A DNA stretch of 64,000 bases from a phage. A program made the translations under genes and the position numbers. The notes under the pieces are model-generated. The model made no database searches. It saw only the letters and a program-made list of their open reading frames with translations, and had not been told where the DNA came from. Positions 2,665-63,811 of the stretch are shown here, in pieces (the stretch's first letter is position 1; each line of letters begins with the position of its first letter). The stretch lies in assembly GCA_014435945.1 (NCBI GenBank), contig GCA_014435945.1_4088.1. One strand, given 5' to 3'.

Positions 2665-3525
2665 ATGAAACCTATCAGAGTACTGTCACTTTTTAATGGA
2701 ATGAGCGTTGGATATATGGCATTGGCAGATGCAGGTATTCCAGTTGAAAAATATTACTCATCTGAAATTGACAAGTACGCAATTGCTGAATCTTCCGAGA
2801 ATTTTCCTGATATTATCCAGTTAGGTGATGTGACTAAGTGGAAAGAATGGGATATTGAGTGGGATAAGATAGATTTACTCATGGGAGGATTCCCATGTCA
2901 AGCCTGGTCTGTTGCTGGTAAGCAAGGTGGCTTGAATGATATACGTGGACAGTTATTTTTGGTTATGGTTGACATTTTTGAGCACATCAAAAGTGTAAAT
3001 CCAAACTTGCAATTTCTGTTCGAGAATGTTAAAATGAAGGAAGATTTCAAAGAATACATTAATAGTATTTTAGGAATCACACCAGTACTGATAAATTCCC
3101 AGCATTATACGCCTCACTTCAGGCAGAGATACTACTGGTGCAGTACTGATAAGCTTTTTATACCACCTGCATTATCAAATGCCCCTAAACTTCAAGATAT
3201 CATTGAAGATGGTTGGTACACTGACAGAACCGCTTCGTACTGTATAGATGCTAACTATTTTAAGGGTGGTGATTGTAACCAGTACTTTAATAAATCAAGA
3301 CGACAGTTGGTGTTTCGTGACCCAACGATTAATCGTCAATATCTATTGGAGAATGGTAAAAGAAATATTGACTATAGACACTTAAGTGTAGTAGAATGTT
3401 GTAAATTACAGGGTATTCCTGTAGATTTCTTTAAAGTGTCTAGTAAGACACAAGCATACAAAATGCTTGGGAATGGATGGACTATGCCAGTTATATCACA
3501 CTTACTAAGAGAGATATTCTTTTGA
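2665..3525 (+). CDS. DNA (cytosine-5)-methyltransferase
   Basis: Motif I LSLFNGMSVG, motif IV GGFPCQAWSVAG, ENV motif FLFENVK, C-terminal GNGWTMPV. Confidence 0.85.
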   Translation: MKPIRVLSLFNGMSVGYMALADAGIPVEKYYSSEIDKYAIAESSENFPDIIQLGDVTKWKEWDIEWDKIDLLMGGFPCQAWSVAGKQGGLNDIRGQLFLVMVDIFEHIKSVNPNLQFLFENVKMKEDFKEYINSILGITPVLINSQHYTPHFRQRYYWCSTDKLFIPPALSNAPKLQDIIEDGWYTDRTASYCIDANYFKGGDCNQYFNKSRRQLVFRDPTINRQYLLENGKRNIDYRHLSVVECCKLQGIPVDFFKVSSKTQAYKMLGNGWTMPVISHLLREIFF

Positions 3526-3527
3526 AC

Positions 3528-4007
3528 ATGAAGAACTACCCCACCTATACTGAACGTGTAATGAAATTTCAACGTCAGTCATCAAAGGAAGAATTAGAAT
3601 TTAATTTGTACTATCCTAATATTGGTGATGAGGTATTCTATTGTTCTCATACAAAGAATGGAACTTTACTTAAATCCGGTAAAGGTATTATTGTTGATAT
3701 GATTAGCACTTTCAAAGGTAAACTTAATGTAATGTACAAAGTACAAGATTCAAGTACTGAGTGCATTCATGAAGTGATGCATAATATACCTGCATATCCA
3801 AAGGATTTTGTTGAGCTAATATCTCGAAGGGAGAAACCTATGTTTTATTGTGGTTATGACAAACTAACCAAACAAATTATTCCTAATACTATGGGAAAAT
3901 TTAAAAGTGATGTTAAAACTGAACTTAATAAGAAATTAGGTTCATCATGGGAAACTGAAAACGAATTCATCGAAATTCGTTTGATTGAAGTTACTATACT
4001 CGATTAA
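3528..4007 (+). CDS. hypothetical protein
   Basis: ATG 3528 just after methyltransferase stop (track start 3477 overlaps). Confidence 0.5.
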   Translation: MKNYPTYTERVMKFQRQSSKEELEFNLYYPNIGDEVFYCSHTKNGTLLKSGKGIIVDMISTFKGKLNVMYKVQDSSTECIHEVMHNIPAYPKDFVELISRREKPMFYCGYDKLTKQIIPNTMGKFKSDVKTELNKKLGSSWETENEFIEIRLIEVTILD

Positions 4008-4049: not shown

Positions 4050-4565
4050 ATGACAGTTCCTTATGTTAAAATTATTAATAATATCCTTGATTCATGGGAA
4101 GATGTTATTACTGGTAAAAAGAACCCAATGCCAGTACACGCACTAACCGGGAGACTACAATTCAGAACGTCAAACAAAACTGAAACTTTTAATAATCATG
4201 ATGTTCACATTACTATAAAATCACCTGTACGTATTGTAATTAAAAAAAATCAAGATGATGAATTGACATTATCTATTGGTAGTGATAAAATCATTTTAAG
4301 TAATTTATCCGAAGAAGAATTCTTTCAACGAAGTACTATCATCGACATGAAAGATTTCACATATGAATCATTGGTTGAACTCAATGCACGTTTCAACGAT
4401 ATTCAGGAACGATTGCGACCAATCCTCCGCAAAGAAGAAGAAGCATGGAATGAAAGTGTAAGAAAGATGCAAGAAATGTTGAAAGAAAATATTAACAATC
4501 TGGGTAAAGCTACAATGGAATTTGGTAAATCTTTTAAACTGAACTTTTCAAAGGATCGTAAATGA
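4050..4565 (+). CDS. hypothetical protein, FQxS-module family
   Basis: ATG 4050 downstream of terminator hairpin (track start 4023 lies inside it); EEEFFQRSTIIDMKDFTYESL. Confidence 0.55.
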   Translation: MTVPYVKIINNILDSWEDVITGKKNPMPVHALTGRLQFRTSNKTETFNNHDVHITIKSPVRIVIKKNQDDELTLSIGSDKIILSNLSEEEFFQRSTIIDMKDFTYESLVELNARFNDIQERLRPILRKEEEAWNESVRKMQEMLKENINNLGKATMEFGKSFKLNFSKDRK

Positions 4566-5017
4566 AAATTGATAATTTGATTCATGTCTTAGGGACTTTA
4601 CATAAAATATTATTACATCTTAACGAGATGAATAAACTAGGTTATAATGTCCATAATGTATTTGAACCTACATTTAAATATAACTCAATCACTGGAGATG
4701 GTAATTACATAATCGAATATACATATGAAACCGATCCAGACTTCTATCCTCTTACGTTGAGAATTTATCCAACAAATCCGATAGGAATTCACGACATATC
4801 ATCAATTTCACTTGATCCAGATGGTGAAACGAGTATTGAATACAATAATGATTCAAAACCAGAATTTTACATTGATGACATTAAAAAGTTGTTCAATGAT
4901 GAATATGTTTTCCAACAAAGTACTGTGCATGATGTTGGTAGTACTACTGGGCAATTTTGGAATACATGTTATTATCATATGATTGAAATTTGTAAATTAC
5001 TAAAAGGTGTTGAATAA
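4562..5017 (+). CDS. hypothetical protein, FQxS-module family
   Basis: Overlapping start; DEYVFQQSTVHDVG. Confidence 0.55.
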   Translation: MKIDNLIHVLGTLHKILLHLNEMNKLGYNVHNVFEPTFKYNSITGDGNYIIEYTYETDPDFYPLTLRIYPTNPIGIHDISSISLDPDGETSIEYNNDSKPEFYIDDIKKLFNDEYVFQQSTVHDVGSTTGQFWNTCYYHMIEICKLLKGVE

Positions 5018-9200: not shown

Positions 9201-9707
9201 ATGAGTGTTGAATATTGGTTTTTGTTTATATGTCTTGGTACACTAGTACTGATTACATTGGGCTTAATCTTCAATACGGTAATCAGTGGTAGTAATTACT
9301 TCAAGTCCTTTCAACTTCTAATGTCAGCTATGCAGTACAGTGACGAGGCAGAAGAAACCACTACGTTGATTTTGAATAAACTTGAAGCTAACTTACTGGT
9401 TGCTAAAATTTCTTCGTGTAATACAAATATTGTATTTTATGCATCACCCGTGGACCTTAATGGGTACGAAATGAGTTACCAGCCAGCCGTTGCTGAAATT
9501 TTTATTGGTTCTAAGTATTATGCATATGGATATATCCGAAAGTATTATACTGAAGCAAAAGCCGAGCTAACAAAGAAACGACCGTCAATTAAGACATTAA
9601 AGCGTATCATCGCACTAGAAAAGAAACTACGAGGTGATGTGACAAAAAATGATTCACCCACTGTAGTAAATACAAAGAAAAAAAATAACGTAGTGGAGTT
9701 GGATTAA
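9201..9707 (+). CDS. membrane-anchored hypothetical protein
   Basis: 168 aa; N-terminal hydrophobic helix. Confidence 0.5.
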   Translation: MSVEYWFLFICLGTLVLITLGLIFNTVISGSNYFKSFQLLMSAMQYSDEAEETTTLILNKLEANLLVAKISSCNTNIVFYASPVDLNGYEMSYQPAVAEIFIGSKYYAYGYIRKYYTEAKAELTKKRPSIKTLKRIIALEKKLRGDVTKNDSPTVVNTKKKNNVVELD

Positions 9708-10012
9708 TGGACGCAGATAAATCAAACAGTATTCTTATTGATGTACAAACGAAGTTATTAGATGTTATGGAAATCATCAAAGATTTACCACAAGGATATC
9801 AGTTTAAAGTTCGTGAAATGTTATCTTGTGCAGAAACTGTTGTGTCTATGTACAATGATGTGCAGCATGGAATTATCCCTGAAATTCTTCAAGATGGTCT
9901 AAATATTAACACAAAGATTCCAGTACAAGAGCCTGAAGAGGTTGTTCAGCCTGAACCAGAACCTACTATACGTAAAGTACTGGATCTATCTGGTATCAAA
10001 ATTAACATCTAA
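9707..10012 (+). CDS. hypothetical protein
   Basis: 101 aa, TAATG overlap. Confidence 0.5.
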   Translation: MDADKSNSILIDVQTKLLDVMEIIKDLPQGYQFKVREMLSCAETVVSMYNDVQHGIIPEILQDGLNINTKIPVQEPEEVVQPEPEPTIRKVLDLSGIKINI

Positions 10013-10035
10013 AATACATTCAATAGGAGAAGTAA

Positions 10036-10184
10036 TGAGTAATCAAAAAATTGACTTAGTAGTAAAACTTCAAGAGATTCAAGAACTAGCGAAATCCCTT
10101 GATGAAAAACGTGCAGCAGCAGTTGATTCACTGTGTGCAACAATCCTGACTGTTTTTGCAGATTACGAAAAGAAATCTGATTGA
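10036..10184 (+). CDS. small hypothetical protein
   Basis: ATG after AGGAGAAG RBS; the longer track ORF 9942 overlaps upstream gene. Confidence 0.4.
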
Positions 10185-10196
10185 ACATTACTTTAT

Positions 10197-10223
10197 ACCC
10201 AGTCTAGTACTGGGTATTTTTTT
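10197..10223 (+). terminator. intrinsic terminator
   Basis: ACCCAGT...ACTGGGT hairpin followed by T-run. Confidence 0.6.
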
Positions 10224-10234
10224 AAGGAAATAAA

Positions 10235-50229: not shown

Positions 50230-51378
50230 ATGTTTGAAAAGTACTATTTAAATGAAGATGGTGAGAAAGTTTATATTATTGAAGAATTATGTACTAAATT
50301 TGAGTACATGAAAATAGAAAATGTTCCTGTAAAAAATAAAAAAACTATCGTTAGAATTGATGAAATTAAACTAAAAGCCATTGAAAAAGAAGATACTATT
50401 TTTGGCTTACAGATATCAAACAGTAATCAATTTTTTGGACTAGAAAAGAATAAAGTTCTGTTTAGATGTGGAACATGCAGCACTTTATGTACAAGTTCAC
50501 TGAAAAGTTATCTTATCTCTGGTGGATGTCAGATATGTGGTAAGAAGAAAAGAAAAGAGTACCAAAACACTATCAAAATATCTGAATCTGATGCATTAAA
50601 AGAAATACAAAAAGAGTGTAAACGCGAATCTATTACATTTATCAAATTTGAAGGTGAATTTACTACAAAATTCAAATCTAAATTTTGGTACAAATGTAAA
50701 AACAACCATACTCGTTTATGTGAGAACATTTATGATTTTCTTAATGGTCATAATTGTGTTGAATGTCGTGATTACAGCTCGGCAAAAAAGATTCGTTTGA
50801 ATATTCTAGTAGTCAAATATGAAATAGATAAAAGAAACGCAGTTTGTAATAATACCTTTATTGGATTTGTGGGAGGTGTTTATGAAACATCAAAAACAAA
50901 ATTACATTTACAGTGTAATGATTGTAATAACCCATTTTATCCATCATATCATAACTATATATCATCTGAGTCTTCATGTCCTACCTGTTCATCAGGTGAG
51001 AGTAAGAATTTAGTTGATATTGATGGTATGTTAGAAGATGATACCATAAAAGAGAAACGCTTCATTGATTGTAAGTTCAAAAAGCCATTACCTTTTGATC
51101 GATTTATTGAAAGTAAACGAATCCTTCTGGAATATGATGGAGTACAACATTTTCAATCAATCAAATTATGGGGCGGCAAAAGTGCTTTTGAACAAAGAAA
51201 GATAAAAGACGCAATAAAAACTGAGTACGCCATCAACAACGGTTACAACTTCATTAGGATTGCATACTATGAAGACCACGTTGCAGTACTGAAATCTTTT
51301 CTAAAACTTATCGAAGATAATCCAGAAAAGCAAATCGTACAGATTTATGGTGAAGTACAAATCTTAGACAAGAAATAA
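50230..51378 (+). CDS. zinc-ribbon-rich protein with C-terminal endonuclease-like region (possible homing-endonuclease-like)
   Basis: Several CxxC pairs; C-terminal LEYDGVQHF...RKIKD...GYNFIRIAY resembles Vsr/PD-(D/E)xK-type nuclease core (low certainty). Confidence 0.5.
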   Translation: MFEKYYLNEDGEKVYIIEELCTKFEYMKIENVPVKNKKTIVRIDEIKLKAIEKEDTIFGLQISNSNQFFGLEKNKVLFRCGTCSTLCTSSLKSYLISGGCQICGKKKRKEYQNTIKISESDALKEIQKECKRESITFIKFEGEFTTKFKSKFWYKCKNNHTRLCENIYDFLNGHNCVECRDYSSAKKIRLNILVVKYEIDKRNAVCNNTFIGFVGGVYETSKTKLHLQCNDCNNPFYPSYHNYISSESSCPTCSSGESKNLVDIDGMLEDDTIKEKRFIDCKFKKPLPFDRFIESKRILLEYDGVQHFQSIKLWGGKSAFEQRKIKDAIKTEYAINNGYNFIRIAYYEDHVAVLKSFLKLIEDNPEKQIVQIYGEVQILDKK

Positions 51379-51388
51379 CAATACAAAA

Positions 51389-51421
51389 GGGTTGACTTCG
51401 GTCAGCCCTTTTTGCTATAAT
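51389..51421 (+). promoter_or_regulatory. terminator-promoter cassette
   Basis: GGGTTGAC-TTCG-GTCAGCCC, TTTTT, GC, TATAAT. Confidence 0.7.
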
Positions 51422-51449
51422 TATTTCATCAACTGATGAGGATAACGAA

Positions 51450-52220
51450 ATGACCAGAGAAGCACGTAGCATTCAAATCCAGAAAAACTTCAACTCCATG
51501 ATGGTTGCTCTTGAGTGTTTGCTCGATGATAGCAGTACTGTAAAAAGTATGGTTGTCAGTGGTGCACCTGGTGTTGGTAAGACTTACACCCTGTCACAAC
51601 GCCTCCAGAAAGCTCATGACGCAGCAGAATGGAACGTAGCTACTATCAGTGGTAAGATGACTACTCTTGCTCTGTATGAAGTTCTGTACAAGAATCGTCA
51701 CAGCACTAACGTATTAGTACTGGATGATATGGACAGCATCTTTGATTCAGAAGACGGTATGAACCTGCTCAAAGCAGTACTGGACAGCGGTAAACGTACT
51801 GTGTCTTACATGACTAGCTCTAAGTACTTAACTACCAACGGTATCCCTAACAGCTTTGATTTTAACGGTCGTATCGTATTCATTACTAACAAAGATTTAG
51901 CACTGAATGCTAAAGCTAAAACCAAAATGTCTGCTCACTATGCTGCTCTTATGTCTCGCTCTGTGTATGTTGACTTACAGATCCAGACTAAAAGCGATAT
52001 CATGATTCACATTGAAAACGTAATGAACAAGACCAACATCCTGTCAACTAAAGGTGTTAATAGTAATGGTAGCAAAGCAATCCTGAATTGGATGCTGAAA
52101 CATGAAGATGCACTTCGTGCCCCTTCACTGCGTATGCCTCTGTTGATTTCAGCAGTATACAACAACAACCCGTATGATTGGGAAGAGCAGTGCGAAAATT
52201 TGTTCCTTGAGAAAATTTAA
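51450..52220 (+). CDS. P-loop NTPase (AAA-like ATPase)
   Basis: Walker A GAPGVGKT; Walker B-like VLVLDDMD. Confidence 0.7.
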   Translation: MTREARSIQIQKNFNSMMVALECLLDDSSTVKSMVVSGAPGVGKTYTLSQRLQKAHDAAEWNVATISGKMTTLALYEVLYKNRHSTNVLVLDDMDSIFDSEDGMNLLKAVLDSGKRTVSYMTSSKYLTTNGIPNSFDFNGRIVFITNKDLALNAKAKTKMSAHYAALMSRSVYVDLQIQTKSDIMIHIENVMNKTNILSTKGVNSNGSKAILNWMLKHEDALRAPSLRMPLLISAVYNNNPYDWEEQCENLFLEKI

Positions 52221-52228
52221 TTACATGT

Positions 52229-52258
52229 ATTGACAGTACTACCATAGTGTAGTACTAT
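52229..52258 (+). promoter_or_regulatory. candidate promoter with AGTACT-rich spacer
   Basis: TTGACA then about 17 bp then TACTAT. Confidence 0.4.
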
Positions 52259-52287
52259 AACTTAATATTCACCACCGGAGATACGAT

Positions 52288-52626
52288 ATGCTTGAGTTTT
52301 TTAATTCAGATACAATGCTTAGTATTACTTTGATTTATCTGTTTGGTTTTTTCTTTTATCATGCACTAGTTGTAGTACTATGGTATTTTAAAAAGAAAAT
52401 CGTTTTCAAACTGTATCCTGATGGAAACATTTCACTACTTCTTTTCACTATTATCCAAGGTATGTTTGCAATTGTTGGTCTTATCGCACACTTAATTTAT
52501 TGTGCTAATCCACAGTTGAACTCAATATCACAATATATTGTATTCCTTGGATTACTAATTTGGGTGCTGATATACTTGTTTAATCTCATCATCAATGGTA
52601 GAGCAAAAATTCGTGGGGACTTCTAA
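52288..52626 (+). CDS. small membrane protein, array B member 1
   Basis: 112 aa; about 3 TM helices; basic C-terminal tail. Confidence 0.55.
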   Translation: MLEFFNSDTMLSITLIYLFGFFFYHALVVVLWYFKKKIVFKLYPDGNISLLLFTIIQGMFAIVGLIAHLIYCANPQLNSISQYIVFLGLLIWVLIYLFNLIINGRAKIRGDF

Positions 52627-52973
52627 TGTTTGAATCTTATCTTGAGTTTTTAAAGAGTAGTTCTGTTGCACATTCAATTGCAGGGATTATTCTAACAGGT
52701 TATGTAACATTTTGGGTAGTTATGTTTCTAGGATGGTATTTTAAACGACAATTCTATAAGCGTAATGGTGAAGATTTTATGAATTCTTTCATTAATCAAT
52801 CGTTGTTTGCATCAACATTGATAGCATCTATTGTAGCAACACTCACTGGAAAGGTACTGCCAGCATTCTCCGCAGTTTACGGTACATTGGGTATGATATG
52901 TGTAGTTTTTTACTTGATCATTAAACTTTGTTGTGTTATGATTGACCTTCGAAACAAGATACCGGAGGAATGA
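52626..52973 (+). CDS. small membrane protein, array B member 2
   Basis: TAATG overlap; tail ends DLRNKIPEE, like array A. Confidence 0.55.
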   Translation: MFESYLEFLKSSSVAHSIAGIILTGYVTFWVVMFLGWYFKRQFYKRNGEDFMNSFINQSLFASTLIASIVATLTGKVLPAFSAVYGTLGMICVVFYLIIKLCCVMIDLRNKIPEE

Positions 52974-53308
52974 TGGAATATTTTTTACACTTACTGCCGT
53001 GGTATATGAAAGTTAGTACTATGTACTATATTCTTAGTGCTGGATTCTACTTTCTGATGTGGTTCTTCAAACGACCAATTTCAGTATTCATCTCTGATAA
53101 CATGCTGCAATTAAAATTACACGCATGGTTTGGTATGGCGATGATTATGCCAATTATTCACTACTCAATGATTAGTAGAGGGTTCCGTTCCAATGGTGAA
53201 CCAATTGTATTAGTATTCTATTGGGGTTCAACTATTGCATATGTAAGTTTGTTGTTGTTCCCAGTCGTTCATAAATTACGTGCTAAAGTTCCTGATGCGA
53301 GGTACTAA
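52970..53308 (+). CDS. small membrane protein, array B member 3
   Basis: ATGA overlap; same architecture. Confidence 0.55.
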   Translation: MMEYFLHLLPWYMKVSTMYYILSAGFYFLMWFFKRPISVFISDNMLQLKLHAWFGMAMIMPIIHYSMISRGFRSNGEPIVLVFYWGSTIAYVSLLLFPVVHKLRAKVPDARY

Positions 53309-53622
53309 TGGATATCGTAACATTGATTTACACGCTTTATTCATTCTATTTTATTATGTGTTGGGTTGGATTTTTATTTGTATTGAAGATGTTTGATTAT
53401 GTTGAAAAACAGATAAAAGAATTTTGTATTCCTTTTATTGGGTCAACCATAATTAGTATTACTTGTTTGTATTATTTGGTATGTGATCCACCTGTTAATA
53501 CAGCAATGATTGACTTCATGTTATTACCAACAACTGTTATTTTTTTATGTAGTCTGATGCCACCGATTAGTCGTGGGCTAACCGAATTTAGACGCAATCA
53601 AAAGCGTAAACGAGGGATGTGA
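53308..53622 (+). CDS. small membrane protein, array B member 4
   Basis: TAATG overlap; same architecture. Confidence 0.55.
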   Translation: MDIVTLIYTLYSFYFIMCWVGFLFVLKMFDYVEKQIKEFCIPFIGSTIISITCLYYLVCDPPVNTAMIDFMLLPTTVIFLCSLMPPISRGLTEFRRNQKRKRGM

Positions 53623-53990
53623 TGGAAATTACACTTATTATATTAACTGCTATGTTGTTTATTAGTACAATTGTTATTATTGGCAAGTTCTTCTGTGTAT
53701 CCTTCTTGGAAACCGTATACGATGAAATTGCTGATGATTATGAATTACATGCGGGATTTTTTACTACGTATTGGATTAGTTTATTACTACTTATCACTGT
53801 ATGGATTTTACATATATTCAAATGGGGTATGGTAGATGGTGATCCAGTACTGGCAATTATCTGTGTAGTGTTTGGTCTACTCGGTGGTGCTGTCCATAAT
53901 CTGATGGTAATTTGGCAAACCGTACAATATGTATTAGTTCCACATTTTCAGAGAATGCACCAAAGCATCAAATACCGCAAACGAGGATAA
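53619..53990 (+). CDS. small membrane protein, array B member 5
   Basis: ATGA overlap; same architecture. Confidence 0.55.
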   Translation: MMEITLIILTAMLFISTIVIIGKFFCVSFLETVYDEIADDYELHAGFFTTYWISLLLLITVWILHIFKWGMVDGDPVLAIICVVFGLLGGAVHNLMVIWQTVQYVLVPHFQRMHQSIKYRKRG

Positions 53991-53991
53991 C

Positions 53992-54354
53992 ATGAATAAT
54001 ATTGAATTATCTTTTATTGGTCAATTAATGGTAATGGCGTATACATTTATCTTCTCACTGAATGCATTCGTGTGCATTGGGAAGTACTTCCATAAGCGAC
54101 CATTATCAAATATATATGATGTAATACAAAGGAGATATAGCCCAGCATATACTGTGTTGAGTACAGCATTCAATTTTGGTTTTATTCTAATGCTGGTTGC
54201 ATTATTAACATCGAGTTTAAATTTTATAACATTTGGTATTATGGTATGTTCACTAACACTGAGTGTGGTTATTCTCTGTGCATCCGTTGAGTTGATGGCG
54301 TGGATGTATTATAAGATTTCCGAAATCCATGACCGTTTAGGTAAGAGGAACTAA
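53992..54354 (+). CDS. small membrane protein, array B member 6
   Basis: Same architecture. Confidence 0.55.
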   Translation: MNNIELSFIGQLMVMAYTFIFSLNAFVCIGKYFHKRPLSNIYDVIQRRYSPAYTVLSTAFNFGFILMLVALLTSSLNFITFGIMVCSLTLSVVILCASVELMAWMYYKISEIHDRLGKRN

Positions 54355-54355
54355 A

Positions 54356-54727
54356 ATGAGTTATCGTGAAATATTTTCGATCATTACTATTATTGTTTTT
54401 AGTTTAGGTTCTTTGGTGTGGTTATTGTATTACTTCTGTGTAACCCCAGTATATAATATGCTAAATTCAGTACGCTCTGATGTTGGTATTGTTTCTTTTA
54501 TTATCTTCATGGCATATTATATGCTAAGTATCACAGGTTTGGTTTTGGTTGTTATCTTTGACCTTGGACCGAATCAAGATGGTATGGAGGTGTGGGAATT
54601 GATAACGATGTTTGCATGTATGATACCTGCATTTGGTGTATGTGCTGGTGTATTTTATGGGTTATGTAAAGGTGTGAACTACTTAAAAAATATCCACAAT
54701 ACTATTCGTAAAAAACGTATGTTATAA
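54356..54727 (+). CDS. small membrane protein, array B member 7
   Basis: Same architecture; tail IRKKRML. Confidence 0.55.
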   Translation: MSYREIFSIITIIVFSLGSLVWLLYYFCVTPVYNMLNSVRSDVGIVSFIIFMAYYMLSITGLVLVVIFDLGPNQDGMEVWELITMFACMIPAFGVCAGVFYGLCKGVNYLKNIHNTIRKKRML

Positions 54728-54728
54728 T

Positions 54729-54764
54729 AAAAATCCAGTACTATTATAGTACTGGATTAATTTT
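54729..54764. terminator. bidirectional terminator at strand switch
   Basis: Perfect 10-bp stem ATCCAGTACT/AGTACTGGAT with A-run and T-run flanks, between convergent genes. Confidence 0.7.
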
Positions 54765-55887
54765 AATTATCTAAGCCACCAATTACACTGAACTGTGTGG
54801 TAACGTCTGAACTATTATCTATGTAAGTTCTTCTACCAACATAATATAGTTGTCCTTTTGCTTGTATAAAAGTTACTGTCCCTGTATTGAATGTTATAAT
54901 ATCATTGTATGTAATGTCAGGTGGTAGTGCTGCTGATAACGCAGTAACTTTACTTAATGCAGCACTAGTACTACCATTTATACCAGCAGCAATACTACCA
55001 GTACCATAGAACTTATTATCTTTACCAATGAATACGTTGGCTGATGCTTGTGTAGCTGATGTTATTGCCTTACCAATTTGGAATGCGGTTCCTATGGTGT
55101 ATGGTGTGCTCCTGGCTGCGTCTATGCTTTGTGTATATCCATCCCCTAGCTGACCATTAACTTTGTCACCACATGAGTATAGAGTACCATTGAGGCTGTA
55201 TATGATCCCACGGTTAGAGAAGCTAACAGCTTCTGCATTAGTCCATACTGGTGCGGTGTATGAGTTTACACGACTAGCGGTAGTTCCTAGACCTAGTATA
55301 CCATATGTGTTATCACCACATCCAAACCATTGCCCAGAACTGTTTTGATAGAACACTGAACGTTCTGTTGATTCCATGCGTACAGCATCCACAGCACCAC
55401 TTTTAACGAACGAAGTGGATGAGGATGTAGTACCAGTACCCAATGCACCATAAGTGTTTGTACCAATCGCATAGATTGATCCTAGTGGTGTCATAACACG
55501 TATGCAGTTATATCCCAATTGAACTTTACATTCAAATAGGTTGTCCCATATTTCAGGAACAGCAGAAAATAAATTTGTAATTTCGAACCATGATGTTGTC
55601 GAACCAGTTAATCCTATACTGCTTTTGTTTCCTAAAATGAAAACAGTTTTGTCCTTCTTAATTATCCATGATGATAGGAAACCTATCTCACAGCTATGAA
55701 CATTTGATTCTATTTGGGTAATATAATACTTAACTGTGTTATCACCCATGAATGCCGCAGCACCGGATGCAAAAAGGTTTCCAGTTTGTTTATTTAAAAT
55801 GTAGTTATTGTTTCCATATACTCTAACATCATAAGAACTTTCTTGTTTTTCGTTCCCATAATCAAATAACAATACGAAAGGTAACAT
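54763..55887 (-). CDS. RCC1-like repeat (beta-propeller) protein, MLPF family paralog A
   Basis: N-terminus MLPFVLLFDYGN; Gly-rich repeats YGALGTGTT, YGILGLGTT, NGQLGDGYT. Confidence 0.65.
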   Translation of the reverse strand: MLPFVLLFDYGNEKQESSYDVRVYGNNNYILNKQTGNLFASGAAAFMGDNTVKYYITQIESNVHSCEIGFLSSWIIKKDKTVFILGNKSSIGLTGSTTSWFEITNLFSAVPEIWDNLFECKVQLGYNCIRVMTPLGSIYAIGTNTYGALGTGTTSSSTSFVKSGAVDAVRMESTERSVFYQNSSGQWFGCGDNTYGILGLGTTASRVNSYTAPVWTNAEAVSFSNRGIIYSLNGTLYSCGDKVNGQLGDGYTQSIDAARSTPYTIGTAFQIGKAITSATQASANVFIGKDNKFYGTGSIAAGINGSTSAALSKVTALSAALPPDITYNDIITFNTGTVTFIQAKGQLYYVGRRTYIDNSSDVTTQFSVIGGLDN

Positions 55888-55964
55888 GATAAAATCTCCT
55901 TGTGTTATACTTTATTTAATCATTTTATAATGTACAATTTTACAGCGATTTAATTGAGGTACTC

Positions 55965-56615
55965 ATGAATAAAAGAAGTAAGTTCTATCAAGAATATTTC
56001 ACTAAACAGAAACGATTCACAAAAAAATACTTTACATCATCCCACCGACCAGTTGCAAGTTACAAACGTCCTAATACTAACTATCTTACTGGTGGCAAGT
56101 TTAGTGCAAAGTTCGAATTACTTATGCGTGAAAAGAATATCAAGATGCATTACGCAGAGACGAGAAAAAACTCATCAATTATTTGCTCTGATTTTCTTGA
56201 GTACGGTTGCTTAACTTATAAATTCAACGATGTATATTTGTATATTGATGTTGATTGTAACAGTACTCGTATGTTTGAGATTTCAATTCACCCAAATCAC
56301 AACCGTTATATAAACATTAACTTGGTTGATAAAGTACTGATTGGTATATCTAGTACTGATGGTGGTGGATTTGAATTTATTGCTTCAAAATATGATGAAG
56401 ATTTCGTACTTTACCCAGTACTTGATGATGTGAAAGATATTCTCAATTCATTAAAAGGAAGTCAATACAAATTATCTGAAGAACAGCTATTCCAGTACTC
56501 ACTTATTCATGATGATATCGAGATATACTTAGAGTGTGCGAGAATCTTGGAGTATCTTTATAATGAACTAACAACAACTGGTAAAGTGACTGCATTCACA
56601 TTATATAATATGTAA
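55965..56615 (+). CDS. hypothetical protein, FQxS-module family, embedded in minus-strand array
   Basis: 216 aa; C-terminal EEQLFQYSLIHDDIEIYLE. Confidence 0.55.
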   Translation: MNKRSKFYQEYFTKQKRFTKKYFTSSHRPVASYKRPNTNYLTGGKFSAKFELLMREKNIKMHYAETRKNSSIICSDFLEYGCLTYKFNDVYLYIDVDCNSTRMFEISIHPNHNRYININLVDKVLIGISSTDGGGFEFIASKYDEDFVLYPVLDDVKDILNSLKGSQYKLSEEQLFQYSLIHDDIEIYLECARILEYLYNELTTTGKVTAFTLYNM

Positions 56616-56646
56616 AAGAAAAGCCAGTACATAGTACTGGCATTAT
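56614..56646. terminator. bidirectional terminator hairpin
   Basis: GCCAGTAC-ATA-GTACTGGC flanked by A-run and T-rich tract. Confidence 0.65.
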
Positions 56647-56647
56647 A

Positions 56648-57784
56648 TTAAACTGGTGGAGAATTATATGGCTCAAATTTATAAGTTGTCGTAGCAGTAC
56701 CAGCAATGGCGTTGTTAGCTAGTATGTACATAGTCCTGTAGTCGATTACCACCACAGTAATACTACCACCAAAAGCATAGTCTGTTATGTTATTAGTGTT
56801 GAATGGTAAATTAGATGAACTGGTCCATGTATTAGCTGTTGTGCTATTTGTACCATTGGAATAGCCGACACTAGATGCACCAGTTGTCCATAAGTTTCCA
56901 TCATTGAACAACGATACATGGTTAGCTGTATATGATTTATTAGGTATAGAACTATCAATTGGTGTATTCCAAACTTTAGTAACCCATGTTGTAACTGCTG
57001 TATTATTAGTAACGCCATTACCTAATGAACCATTTATTGGTATACCTCTTATATAAGAAGTGTTAGTACTAGGGTCAACATATCCAAATGTATATGTATC
57101 AAATGCAAATTGAAAACAATCAGAACTCGGTAATGTGTACAGTAATGTATATGAAGACGTGTTTATTGATGAATTTGTACCGTTCACGCCTTGGTATAAA
57201 ATACCACTAGCCAATATTTGATTATTATTTTTTGTTATAGTGTTCATTGACGGATATGTTTTCACATCACGCACATCATTAGTCACATATGTTTGTGTTG
57301 ATAATGCAACATTACTACCATTACCTATAACTCCTGTATTTGCACCACTCCCATAAAGTGAACCATCATTCAAAAGAACCATTGTGACATTACCATTTCC
57401 CGTAATTGTTTTAATATTACTAACATCCACCGCAGCAAATACAGTTGATGTTAAATCAGTGAAACGTGTATAATGTGATGTTGTGCCATTGATTGGTGTC
57501 GCAAAACCAGAATACAAAATTCTATTTTCTTTGGTAATAAGGAATGTGCCAGTAACACCATTTGAATGGATATCAACAATATTATCGCCCATTAATACCC
57601 AATCACTTACGAATGTTGTTGTGCCAGTACCTAACCCATATGTAGTGTTGTAACCACGTCCATATACTCTACCATCACTGAGTAATGTTACCACACATTG
57701 ACCACCACCACCAAGTATAACTTTTTGTATAGTACTCTTTACTTTTATATTCCCGTACTTAACCATTCTTGCAAAAGGTAACAT
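56648..57784 (-). CDS. RCC1-like repeat protein, MLPF family paralog B
   Basis: MLPFARMVKYGNIKV; YGLGTGTT-type repeats. Confidence 0.65.
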   Translation of the reverse strand: MLPFARMVKYGNIKVKSTIQKVILGGGGQCVVTLLSDGRVYGRGYNTTYGLGTGTTTFVSDWVLMGDNIVDIHSNGVTGTFLITKENRILYSGFATPINGTTSHYTRFTDLTSTVFAAVDVSNIKTITGNGNVTMVLLNDGSLYGSGANTGVIGNGSNVALSTQTYVTNDVRDVKTYPSMNTITKNNNQILASGILYQGVNGTNSSINTSSYTLLYTLPSSDCFQFAFDTYTFGYVDPSTNTSYIRGIPINGSLGNGVTNNTAVTTWVTKVWNTPIDSSIPNKSYTANHVSLFNDGNLWTTGASSVGYSNGTNSTTANTWTSSSNLPFNTNNITDYAFGGSITVVVIDYRTMYILANNAIAGTATTTYKFEPYNSPPV

Positions 57785-57821
57785 AATTCCCTCCTTTATT
57801 CATTATACTATATTTAATCAA

Positions 57822-57856
57822 AAAAGAAAAGCCAGTACTCAAGTACTGGCATTATT
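57822..57856 (-). terminator. intrinsic terminator (minus strand)
   Basis: GCCAGTACT..AGTACTGGC hairpin, U-run on minus strand. Confidence 0.65.
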
Positions 57857-59017
57857 TTAAATTGGTGAATCTTCAACAAATATAGTACTAGCAGTACCAC
57901 CAGATACTAGGTTAGTACCACTTGAATATATTTTGTTTCCATCTGTCATATATGTTTTACCATAGCAACTTTGGATTTTAACATCATTGAAATTTAAATC
58001 AGGAGTAATAGACTTAGTGTAAGTTAATACGTTAGTAGTTGAACCTGTACTTAATTGTCCATAGTATGAAGTCGCTGAGTTATTACCAGCAACGTATACA
58101 CCTGTGTCAGTAATAACAAAGTTAGAGTAATATCCGTACCCATATCCTATATCTAATATATTTCCTTGTGGTTGATTTGCCACAACAGTTGTCAATATGT
58201 TGGTTGATGCTGCTGTATTAGTAGCAGTCTGTCCATATGATTGGTCACCACCAGTATACACAGTAACAACAGACGTACTTTTGTTTCTAGCAATACCTTG
58301 AACCATACCATTAACAGTACTTATAAATGCTATAGTACTAACAGTTGCTGGTAATCCATCTGATAATGCGAATACATTATAAAAACTCACGGTTGAAGTA
58401 CTGTTAGTATCACCTTTAACTTCACCTGTGTAATATAATCTACCACTTTCGGCAATAAATGAACACATGTTTATACCTGCAATAATCCTTTTCGGAACCG
58501 CACCACTTGGTATAATTGATTTTACTAATGTAGTAAAACTGTTAGAATAAGAAGCATTGCCAAGCTGTCCTCCTGTGTTATAACCACCACTCCAAATAGT
58601 TCCATTACTCATAAGTATTGAAATGAAGTTATTTCCTAATGATATTTCAGTAATTGTTCCTTGAGAATTAACTTGATTAATAAGAGTTTGCATAGAAGTC
58701 CATGCATTAACAGATGATGTACCCATACACACATTGTATTGTCGCCCTGTGTATTGATATGTACCATCTGATTTGTGAATCATTGTAGCATACTGACCAC
58801 ACCATACATCAATGACATCCGATGCAGTTACTGTCCATGATGTTCTGGTTGTATTGTCTCCTAAACCCAACTGACCACTTGAATTGGCACCACGGGTATA
58901 TAATTTACCATTATTACCCAATACCATAACCCAGTTATACCCTGCAACTAATTTTTTAATGGCAGCAGGGGATGGTGCAATGTTTCCGTAATCAAACATT
59001 CTAACAAAAGGTAACAT
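57857..59017 (-). CDS. RCC1-like repeat protein, MLPF family paralog C
   Basis: MLPFVRMFDYGNIAP; SGQLGLGD and GGQLGNASY repeats. Confidence 0.7.
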   Translation of the reverse strand: MLPFVRMFDYGNIAPSPAAIKKLVAGYNWVMVLGNNGKLYTRGANSSGQLGLGDNTTRTSWTVTASDVIDVWCGQYATMIHKSDGTYQYTGRQYNVCMGTSSVNAWTSMQTLINQVNSQGTITEISLGNNFISILMSNGTIWSGGYNTGGQLGNASYSNSFTTLVKSIIPSGAVPKRIIAGINMCSFIAESGRLYYTGEVKGDTNSTSTVSFYNVFALSDGLPATVSTIAFISTVNGMVQGIARNKSTSVVTVYTGGDQSYGQTATNTAASTNILTTVVANQPQGNILDIGYGYGYYSNFVITDTGVYVAGNNSATSYYGQLSTGSTTNVLTYTKSITPDLNFNDVKIQSCYGKTYMTDGNKIYSSGTNLVSGGTASTIFVEDSPI

Positions 59018-62500: not shown

Positions 62501-62540
62501 ATTTCCCTCCTTTATTCATTATACTATATTTAATACAAAT

Positions 62541-62570
62541 AAGAAAGCCAGTATCAAGTACTGGCCTATA
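62541..62570 (-). terminator. intrinsic terminator (minus strand)
   Basis: GCCAGTA-TCAAG-TACTGGC hairpin. Confidence 0.6.
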
Positions 62571-62571
62571 T

Positions 62572-63741: not shown

Positions 63742-63780
63742 ATTTCCTCCTTTATTCATTATACTATATTTAATCAAAAA

Positions 63781-63808
63781 GAAAAGCCAGTATCAAGTAC
63801 TGGCATTA
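63781..63808 (-). terminator. intrinsic terminator (minus strand)
   Basis: GCCAGTA-TCAAG-TACTGGC hairpin, same as at 62547. Confidence 0.6.
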
Positions 63809-63811
63809 TTG

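What the first reader, a model, noticed from the sequence alone, without database searches (positions are those of the whole stretch)
55965..56615. FQxS-family gene inserted on the opposite strand inside the propeller-paralog array
The only plus-strand gene within the minus-strand array carries the FQxS C-terminal module (EEQLFQYSLIHDD). It is flanked by bidirectional terminators, suggesting a mobile or independently regulated insertion. It links the two expanded families physically.
Basis: seen in the sequence. Interest (0 to 1): 0.4.

Follow-up and report, generated by a model that had tools for sequence, protein, structure and literature searches.

The report
Conserved boundary gene, not an insertion
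The plus-strand gene between two minus-strand propeller genes is a real, conserved, non-virion gene of this group of giant E. coli phages that has always sat at the edge of the propeller array; an extra propeller gene was added on its other side, so the arrangement is ordinary.

Summary
The ORF at 55965-56615 (+, 216 aa) is real. It evolves under purifying selection (dN/dS about 0.2). It carries the family signature LSEEQLFQYSLIHD, and a leave-one-out family HMM scores it at E = 4.7e-7. The window comes from an Asteriusvirus-like jumbo coliphage.

The 'insertion' reading fails. In 121Q/phAPEC6 (46% identity) and in the outgroup JNE01 (30%), the ortholog is the last gene of the plus-strand block. 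It lies after the same hairpin that follows the membrane-protein paralogs, and it converges directly on the RCC1 array. The extra element in this lineage is the divergent RCC1 gene at 54763-55887, which has its own array-type promoter box and no ortholog in the other clades.

Only the downstream side has a terminator hairpin (56623-56641). The upstream 77 bp is an unstructured divergent control region. The second hairpin lies beyond the RCC1 gene.

The protein has a basic N-terminal helix, a beta-sheet and two C-terminal helices that carry the motif. No solved structure matches the fold. The phAPEC6 ortholog is absent from the virion proteome, whereas the RCC1 proteins are present.

The family is large (135 clusters at 50% identity), confined to this phage group, and of unknown function.

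The parts
54732..54758 (.). Hairpin 1: palindrome AATCCAGTAC-loop-GTACTGGATT at the end of the plus-strand membrane-paralog block. It now also sits 4 nt beyond the stop codon of RCC1a.
   Evidence: Terminator-like on both strands. -15.6 kcal/mol, z = -5.7. The same hairpin follows the TM array in 121Q, phAPEC6 and JNE01. Nucleotide homology to 121Q ends at 54761.
54763..55887 (-). RCC1a: a lineage-specific, highly divergent RCC1-like beta-propeller paralog. This is the element that is extra in this clade.
   Evidence: Pfam RCC1 PF00415, 50.2 bits against a cut-off of 21.7. Only about 25% identical to other array members. No ortholog in the 121Q/PBECO4 or JNE01 clades. Present in L004 at 88%. 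dN/dS 0.09.
55888..55964 (.). 77-bp divergent intergenic control region between the start codons of RCC1a and the target. It contains no terminator.
   Evidence: No terminator-like site. No stable fold. 68 of 77 positions conserved against the relative whose coding regions have dS of about 0.75.
55904..55921 (-). Array-type promoter-like box GATTAAATAaAGTATAAc upstream of RCC1a.
   Evidence: The pattern GATTAAATATAGTATAAT (up to 3 mismatches) occurs 4 times in the window. All four are on the minus strand, just upstream of RCC1 genes a, b, f and g. 0.53 matches are expected by chance.
55926..55931 (+). Candidate -10 hexamer TATAAT for the target gene (inferred only; no good -35).
   Evidence: Read from the sequence. 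Not reported by the consensus scan. It reads TGTAAT in L004.
55965..56615 (+). Target CDS, 216 aa. It is the conserved non-virion boundary gene, a member of PHROG 34359 and of the [ST]EE-x-[FY]FQ-x-S family.
   Evidence: phrog_34359, E = 1.2e-56. Orthologs in 35 phage records. dN/dS 0.20. The phAPEC6 ortholog gp011c is absent from the virion proteome table.
55965..56099 (+). Basic, aromatic-rich N-terminal extension (aa 1-45, pI 10.5), consisting of a predicted helix (aa 3-22) and a disordered linker. Most family members lack it.
   Evidence: Invariant F7 Y8 Y11 F12 F18 K20 K21 Y22 in orthologs.
56460..56576 (+). Family signature module (aa 166-204). LSEEQLFQYSLIHD lies in helix 172-181 and is followed by helix 185-203.
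   Evidence: Leave-one-out HMM, E = 4.7e-7. hhalign aligns columns 166-201, E = 5e-5. AF2 pLDDT 86-92 in this stretch.
56623..56641 (.). Hairpin 2: bidirectional terminator-like palindrome GCCAGTAC-ATA-GTACTGGC between the convergent target and RCC1b genes.
   Evidence: The equivalent hairpin sits at the plus/minus boundary in JNE01.
56648..57784 (-). RCC1b: an array member that is itself an indel. It is absent in relative L004 and is bounded by hairpin-containing repeats.
   Evidence: The L004 junction is a hybrid of the hairpin 2 left flank and the hairpin 3 loop and right flank.
57802..57850 (-). Standard array intergenic unit: hairpin 3 (57831-57850) plus the promoter-like box (57802-57819) upstream of RCC1b.

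Best explanation
The ORF is a genuine protein-coding gene that is ancestral to Asteriusvirus-type jumbo phages.

Genome context:
- It is the last gene of the long plus-strand block of small non-virion genes. That block carries host sigma-70-like promoter sequences.
- It sits in a short compartment between hairpin 1, at the end of the tandem membrane-protein paralogs, and hairpin 2, at the start of the convergent minus-strand array of RCC1-like genes (virion proteins in phAPEC6).
- In the window's lineage, a divergent RCC1 cassette (promoter-like box, RBS and ORF, 54763-55921) was placed between hairpin 1 and the gene. The gene therefore only appears to be embedded in the array.
- As a consequence it is no longer co-transcribed with the upstream membrane-protein operon, as its 121Q ortholog appears to be. 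It must rely on the conserved 77-bp divergent region (inferred).
- RCC1 genes around it are gained, lost and truncated by recombination at the shared palindromic hairpins CCAGTAC..GTACTGG.

The protein:
- It is an atypically long member of a very large, phage-group-restricted paralog family.
- It has a basic aromatic N-terminal helix, a variable acidic antiparallel beta-sheet, and two conserved C-terminal helices. The first of these helices carries the signature [ST]EE-x-[FY]FQ-x-S[LT][IV].

Most likely function (inferred, low confidence, about 0.3): an intracellular early or accessory host-interaction protein. The conserved helical pair would be the structural or docking core, and the fast-evolving sheet would give specificity.

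The confidence given (0.72) applies to the genomic and evolutionary account, not to the functional guess.
For: Reality of the gene:
- The ORF and its RBS are present.
- dN/dS is 0.20 against a 73% relative.
- Orthologs occur in 35 phage records.

Ancestral position:
- 121Q gene 233, phAPEC6 gp011c and the JNE01 ortholog all lie on the plus strand, after the TM paralogs and next to the RCC1 array.
- JNE01 is the outgroup: the neighbouring AAA protein is 96% identical to 121Q but 60% identical to JNE01.

Breakpoint:
- blastn collinearity with 121Q ends at 54761.
- In 121Q and phAPEC6, hairpin 1 is followed directly by AAGGAG and the ATG of the gene.

RCC1a as the extra element:
- It has no ortholog outside its clade.
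- It carries the array box, which is found only upstream of RCC1 genes.

RCC1 flux at hairpins:
- The RCC1b indel has a hybrid hairpin junction in L004.
- A truncated RCC1 remnant abuts the ortholog's stop codon in phAPEC6.
- The hairpin motif occurs 5 times in the window, only between 54.7 and 63.8 kb.

Plus-strand block:
- It contains nine composite terminator plus TTGACT-17-TATAAT units, all on the plus strand.

Virion status:
- The RCC1 proteins are in the phAPEC6 virion proteome; gp011c is not listed there (PMC7247149).

Family:
- Leave-one-out HMM.
- About 30 further members in fEgEco12 at 27-49 kb.
- 135 clusters at 50% identity.
- All named members come from Asteriusvirus-type phages.

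Fold:
- The AF2 models of the target and of a short paralog share a helix, beta-sheet, two-helix architecture.
Against: - The direction of the rearrangement rests on parsimony over three clades in a region of high flux. Two independent losses of RCC1a cannot be excluded.
- If RCC1a was once the first array gene, 'RCC1a moved left' and 'the target moved right' give the same result.
- No convincing promoter was found for the target. The TATAAT is not conserved in L004, and no expression data exist.
- Homology of the target to other family members is detectable only over 36 columns. The shared architecture rests on an AF2 model of moderate confidence (pLDDT 68.9).
- Absence from one virion proteome is weak negative evidence.
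Confidence: 0.72

Rival explanations
1. One reading: the FQxS gene is a mobile or recently inserted cassette that landed inside a pre-existing minus-strand RCC1 array.
For: On the minus strand, the gene plus 43 nt sits exactly between the hairpin/T-tract and the promoter-like box. In standard array units these two elements are contiguous. The region is recombinationally active.
Against: The gene occupies the same boundary position in every clade, including the outgroup. It is present in all 35 records. It has no nuclease, integrase or transposase domain. RCC1a, which would have to be the ancestral first array gene, has no ortholog in the other clades. Homology with 121Q breaks at hairpin 1, not at the gene's own ends.
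Confidence: 0.08
2. The gene is functionally coupled to the RCC1 array, for example as an assembly factor or regulator of the RCC1 virion proteins. That coupling would explain why it stays adjacent to the array in all clades.
For: Adjacency is conserved across three clades despite 30-47% protein identity. The gene evolves fast, as the array does. In this lineage it shares a conserved divergent control region with RCC1a.
Against: It lies on the opposite strand, in the block with host-type promoter sequences, and is convergent with the array in the ancestral state. It belongs to a family whose other members seen here (17-18 in the window, about 30 in the other surveyed stretch) are not next to RCC1 genes. 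Adjacency is explained simply by its being the last gene of the block. In JNE01 another small gene separates it from the array.
Confidence: 0.1
3. The conserved EE-x-[YF]FQ-x-S signature is a proteolytic processing site. From memory, it resembles the TEV site ENLYFQ/S and the 3C site LEVLFQ/GP. Family members would be cleaved after Q to release the C-terminal helix.
For: The sequence resembles these sites. Some members read EEGYFQGS or EEMYFQGS. F, Q and S are conserved in 110 of 133 cluster representatives.
Against: Both AF2 models place the motif inside a well-packed helix with the highest pLDDT, N-capped by S/T-E-E. That is typical of a structural helix, not an exposed site. The position after Q is highly variable and the conserved S lies one residue further on, unlike TEV or 3C sites. 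No protease was identified in the sequence examined.
Confidence: 0.03
4. The ORF is not a functional gene, but a chance ORF or a decaying remnant in a rearrangement hot spot.
For: No known domain. The region is hypervariable.
Against: dN/dS is 0.20. The full-length ORF is conserved at 30-100% identity in 35 records, with 36 invariant residues. An RBS is present. The C-terminal module is predicted with confidence.
Confidence: 0.01

Closest known systems
PHROG 34359 (121Q gp233 / phAPEC6 gp011c type hypothetical proteins of Asteriusvirus)
   Same: Full-length match, E = 1.2e-56. The genomic neighbourhood is the same: TM paralogs upstream and the RCC1 array downstream.
   Different: Only 46% identical. 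In the window's clade the gene is preceded by a minus-strand RCC1 gene instead of directly by hairpin 1. The function of the PHROG is unknown.
The [ST]EE-x-[FY]FQ-x-S small-protein family of Asteriusvirus-type phages (undescribed; spread over more than 20 PHROGs of unknown function)
   Same: It has the signature helix followed by a second helix. The predicted architecture, helix then beta-sheet then two helices, is the same. It lies on the plus strand in the non-virion gene block.
   Different: The target is the longest member seen (216 aa, against 90-190). It has a basic 45-aa N-terminal extension and a near-neutral pI, whereas most members have a pI of 4-5. It lacks the usual continuation D-[FL]-G-D-L-T-[YF]-E-D after the motif. 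Sequence homology outside the module is not detectable.
Lineage-specific expansions of small proteins in jumbo phages, such as the roughly 35-copy zinc-ribbon expansion of Bacillus phage G noted in PMC7824862
   Same: Dozens of tandemly arranged small paralogs restricted to one phage lineage, with fast divergence.
   Different: The fold and motif are unrelated. That paper does not mention this family.
MAM33 / p32 (gC1qBP) acidic alpha+beta fold

Membership tests
[ST]EE-x-[FY]FQ-x-S family (defined here) | Signature motif near the C-terminus, scored by a family HMM that excludes the candidate | tested here: met
   Leave-one-out HMM: E = 4.7e-7, 23 bits. FQYSL is invariant in orthologs.
[ST]EE-x-[FY]FQ-x-S family (defined here) | The motif lies in the first of two C-terminal helices, which pack on an antiparallel beta-sheet | tested here: met
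   AF2 target model: H172-181 and H185-203 after strands 59-151. Short paralog model: H87-96 and H104-116 after 5 strands, pLDDT 87. These are predictions only.
[ST]EE-x-[FY]FQ-x-S family (defined here) | Sequence homology over the whole roughly 130-aa domain | tested here: inconclusive
   jackhmmer finds no paralog in the window. hhalign aligns only 36 columns, probability 67%.
[ST]EE-x-[FY]FQ-x-S family (defined here) | Small (90-190 aa) acidic protein | tested here: not met
   216 aa and pI 7.6, because of a basic N-terminal extension. The core (aa 46-216) has pI 4.8.
PHROG 34359 | Full-length profile match | tested here: met
   E = 1.2e-56; residues 3-216 against profile positions 5-214 of 220.
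Mobile gene cassette (homing endonuclease gene, transposon or similar) | Encodes or is accompanied by a nuclease, transposase or integrase | tested here: not met
   No Pfam domain in the target. The neighbours are RCC1 genes.
Mobile gene cassette (homing endonuclease gene, transposon or similar) | Sporadic presence or absence, or variable location, among related genomes | tested here: not met
   Present once in each of 35 records. It occupies the same boundary position in the six relatives inspected, which cover all three clades and the metagenomic relative.
Gene flanked by bidirectional intrinsic terminators | GC-rich hairpin with T-tracts on both sides of the gene | tested here: not met
   Present downstream (56623-56641). 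Absent in the 77-bp upstream region.
RCC1-like beta-propeller (for the flanking genes) | Pfam RCC1 repeats above the gathering score | tested here: met
   54763-55887: PF00415, 50.2 bits against 21.7. 57857-59017: 41.0 bits. 56648-57784: only below-threshold matches, RCC1_2 19.9 against 22 and WD40_RLD at E = 1.3e-8.
MAM33/p32 fold | Significant structural superposition | tested here: inconclusive

The most novel reading that the evidence does not exclude
The conserved two-helix [ST]EE-x-FFQ-x-S module would be a common docking element. Through it, at least 48, and possibly many more, fast-evolving small proteins per genome would plug into a single phage or host partner, giving a 'constant handle, variable head' system for host takeover or counter-defence.

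The boundary gene would be a specialised version. Its conserved basic aromatic N-terminal helix would tether it to nucleic acid or membrane. In this lineage its expression could be shut off late by antisense read-through from the RCC1 array.
Probability: 0.1. Interest if true: 0.6.

Novelty: new member of a known kind. Interest (0 to 1): 0.22.

Why it matters
For the finding as stated, it matters little. The odd strand arrangement is a by-product of RCC1-gene turnover at an early/late strand-switch boundary. The gene is already annotated as a hypothetical protein in many published genomes.

Two by-products are more useful.
1. RCC1 genes, which encode virion proteins in phAPEC6, are gained and lost as cassettes by recombination at a shared palindromic terminator. 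This gives a concrete mechanism for the variability of the array.
2. The [ST]EE-x-FFQ-x-S proteins form a very large paralog family. I found it in no searched paper or Pfam model, and no solved structure matches it. It takes up a sizeable share of the small-gene regions examined in these phages and would be a sensible target for structural and functional work.

Tried and rejected
- Whole-length paralog search in the window (jackhmmer): nothing. Similarity to the family is confined to the module.
- Pfam on the target and on 17 family members: only noise.
- PHROGs: families of unknown function only. The weak full-length hit to phrog_29152 (E = 0.008) could not be followed up.
- The afdb50 fold library was unavailable.
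- BFVD: only uncharacterised proteins of the same and related jumbo phages.
- Family-profile word-index search: only 11 hits pass the database-size threshold.
- Literature: the family and the gene are not mentioned, and no transcriptome exists for this phage group.
- Sigma-70 consensus scan: no convincing promoter for the target. Promoter-like hits in the region are no more frequent than in shuffled sequence.
- Rfam: no RNA family in the region.
- I looked for a sharp jump in protein divergence at hairpin 1. Divergence from 121Q rises gradually instead: TM3 96%, TM5 82%, TM6 74%, TM7 63%, target 47%. Only DNA collinearity breaks at the hairpin.
- I did not complete a whole-genome census of the family. 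Only 114 kb were surveyed.

Full report
**Identity of the window.** The 1.8 kb around the finding is 95-99% identical to ten E. coli jumbo phages of 352-386 kb: WPEC3, Turkey3, fEgEco12, Ecwhy_1, CMSTMSU and others. More distant relatives are the Asteriusvirus phages 121Q, PBECO4 and phAPEC6, and JNE01/Turkey5.

**Observation.**
- The ORF at 55965-56615 (+) is present. It has an ATG start, encodes 216 aa, and has GAGG 5 nt upstream of the ATG.
- It contains EEQLFQYSLIHDD at residues 172-184.
- It is flanked by minus-strand RCC1-like genes at 54763-55887 ('RCC1a') and 56648-57784 ('RCC1b'). The array continues to the end of the window.
- Everything upstream of 54727 is on the plus strand. The gene therefore sits between the first and second members of the array, not deep inside it.
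- The 'bidirectional terminators on both sides' are only half true.
  - A palindromic hairpin with T-tracts lies downstream at 56623-56641.
  - The 77 bp upstream (55888-55964) has no terminator-like site and folds no better than shuffled sequence. It lies between two divergent start codons.
  - The other hairpin (54732-54758) is on the far side of RCC1a.

**Is the motif more than chance?** Yes.
- Thirteen plus-strand ORFs in the window share EE..FQ.S[LT][IV] near the C-terminus.
- An HMM of the module built without the target scores it at E = 4.7e-7. It also recovers four non-seed ORFs at E <= 6.5e-5.
- About 30 more members lie at 27-49 kb of fEgEco12.
- A full-domain profile finds 135 clusters (50% identity) among 1.84 billion proteins. 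Of 133 representatives, 110 carry FQxS. The consensus is [TS]-E-E-x-[FY]-F-Q-x-S-[TL]-[VI]-x-D.
- Every named member comes from an Asteriusvirus-type phage.
- No Pfam model matches. The members are spread over more than 20 PHROGs of unknown function.
- I found no mention of the family in the literature searched.

**Comparative genomics.** This part decides the interpretation.
- In 121Q (gene 233), in phAPEC6 (gp011c) and in JNE01, the ortholog is on the same strand as the preceding block. It lies after the tandem membrane-protein paralogs and is convergent with the RCC1 array. No RCC1 gene lies upstream of it.
- JNE01 is the outgroup. The neighbouring AAA protein is 96% identical between the window and 121Q, but 60% identical to JNE01.
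- Hairpin 1 (CCAGTAC..GTACTGG core) follows the membrane paralogs in all clades. In 121Q and phAPEC6 it is followed directly by AAGGAG and the ATG of the gene.
- Nucleotide collinearity between the window and 121Q runs from 51385 to 54761, which is the end of hairpin 1, and then stops.
- RCC1a is found only in the window's clade and in a metagenomic relative whose target ortholog is 73% identical. It is about 25% identical to every other RCC1 paralog and has no ortholog in the other clades.
- RCC1a carries the box GATTAAATAaAGTATAAc. In the window this box occurs only on the minus strand, immediately upstream of RCC1 genes a, b, f and g.
- The parsimonious reading is that an RCC1 cassette was added between hairpin 1 and the gene. 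The FQxS gene is the constant occupant of the compartment between the two hairpins.
- That compartment varies in its other contents. JNE01 has two additional small plus-strand genes there. The 121Q clade has a truncated RCC1 remnant fused to the ortholog's stop codon.
- The RCC1 genes are clearly in flux at the hairpins. RCC1b is absent from the 73% relative. The junction there is a hybrid of the hairpin 2 left flank with the hairpin 3 loop and right flank.
- The hairpin motif occurs five times in the window, only between 54.7 and 63.8 kb.
- Caveat: if RCC1a had once been the first array gene, 'RCC1a moved left' and 'the gene moved right' would be the same event. Either way, the ancestral place of the gene is the end of the plus-strand block.

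**Regulation.**
- The plus-strand block contains nine composite units in which a terminator hairpin holds a TTGACT -35 element followed by TATAAT. It also has several sites of the type TTGAC-N-TGTATAAT. These are host sigma-70-type promoter sequences, so the block is probably transcribed early (inferred).
- RCC1 proteins gp003, 005, 006, 007, 009 and 010 are in the phAPEC6 virion proteome. gp011c is not listed there (PMC7247149).
- In 121Q the gene has no promoter-like sequence of its own and would be reached by read-through of hairpin 1. In the window's lineage it is cut off by RCC1a.
- Its 77-bp upstream region is conserved in 68 of 77 positions against a relative whose flanking genes have dS of about 0.75.
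- That region holds a TATAAT at 55926-55931 without a good -35. The hexamer reads TGTAAT in the relative. An independent promoter is therefore plausible but not shown.

**The protein.**
- dN/dS is 0.20. This is similar to the membrane paralogs (0.15-0.31) and higher than the AAA gene (0.04).
- Identity to 121Q is 47%. This continues a gradient of rising divergence toward the boundary.
- The AF2 model has pLDDT 68.9 and pTM 0.67. It predicts:
  - a basic aromatic N-terminal helix (3-22);
  - a disordered basic linker;
  - a seven-stranded sheet (59-151);
  - helices 154-162, 172-181 (the motif) and 185-203, the latter two with pLDDT 86-92.
- A short paralog gives a confident model (pLDDT 87) with the same architecture of helix, sheet and two helices.
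- Invariant residues in orthologs cluster in the N-terminal helix and in the C-terminal helices.
- Most family members are acidic, with pI 4-5. The target has an acidic core (pI 4.8) and a 45-aa extension of pI 10.5.
- BFVD returns only uncharacterised proteins of these and related Rak2-like phages.
- The function is therefore unknown. The best guess is an intracellular early or accessory host-interaction protein. It rests on gene context, rapid evolution, family expansion and absence from one virion proteome. I give it about 0.3.

**Verdict.**
- The feature is real but ordinary.
The 'insertion' interpretation is not supported. 'Independent regulation' is possible as a secondary consequence of an RCC1 gene landing next to the gene.

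Noticed in passing
window 55-41093 (17-18 ORFs, e.g. 311-730, 4562-5017, 18473-18832, 19987-20391); L006 (fEgEco12) 27270-48971: The [ST]EE-x-[FY]FQ-x-S proteins form a very large family that I could not find described anywhere. There are at least 18 copies in the window and about 30 in another 22-kb stretch of a close relative. A profile finds 135 clusters at 50% identity. All named members come from Asteriusvirus-type phages. There is no Pfam model and no PDB fold neighbour.
   Followed up: partly
window 56613-57867; L004 8633-8712: RCC1b (56648-57784) is a cassette indel relative to a metagenomic relative. It is bounded by direct repeats of about 46 nt that contain the palindromic terminator. 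The relative's junction is a hybrid of the two hairpins. This suggests that RCC1 genes are gained and lost by recombination at the terminators.
   Followed up: yes
window 57785-57856, 62501-62571, 63760-63810 (minus strand): RCC1 paralogs are only 25-35% identical overall. They nevertheless share near-identical 5' ends (MLPF[AV]RM[VF][KD]YGN) and an upstream unit made of the hairpin, TTTTCTTTTT, GATTAAATATAGTATAAT and GAATAAAGGAGG. Segments of about 300 bp at the 5' end are about 90% identical between paralogs and between phages. This points to gene conversion or to a constant N-terminal anchor. In phAPEC6 these proteins are virion components.
   Followed up: partly
window 30339, 38460, 42054, 42834, 44415, 45064, 49360, 49943, 51390 (all + strand): There are nine composite elements, GGGTTGACTTCGGTCAGCCC followed by TTTTTGCTATAAT. 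Each is a terminator hairpin whose stem contains a TTGACT -35 hexamer placed 17 nt from a TATAAT. They appear to be fused terminator and sigma-70-type promoter units that punctuate the plus-strand block.
   Followed up: partly
window 50230-51378 (+): A 382-aa Cys-rich ORF with a treble-clef zinc finger (DUF4379, E = 9e-6). The related phages inspected (121Q, JNE01, fEgEco12, L004) show no nucleotide match to this ORF at this position. 121Q has an 'endonuclease' gene in that region, and fEgEco12 has an HNH endonuclease gene just upstream. It looks like a variable slot for mobile endonuclease genes.
   Followed up: partly
window 52288-54727 (+): Seven tandem paralogs of small membrane proteins (104-123 aa). 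Their identity to 121Q falls steadily toward the strand-switch boundary, from 96% to 63%. 121Q has one more copy.
   Followed up: partly
L007 (phAPEC6) 3140-3543; L002 (121Q) 9620-10516: In the 121Q/phAPEC6 clade the ortholog's stop codon abuts or overlaps the 3' end of a truncated minus-strand RCC1 gene. No hairpin lies between them, so this looks like a deletion scar at the same boundary.
   Followed up: partly
window 14065-18038 (+): Seven tRNA genes lie among the small genes. They include three identical tandem tRNA-Thr(TGT) copies (17805-18038) and a long-arm tRNA that ARAGORN calls Ser with anticodon ACT.
   Followed up: no
window 56475-56513; L006 41416-41862, 45664-46146: The family signature resembles viral 3C/NIa protease sites (from memory). 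Some members read EEGYFQGS or EEMYFQGS, close to the TEV consensus E-x-x-Y-x-Q-G/S. AF2 places the motif in a buried helix, so this is probably coincidental.
   Followed up: partly
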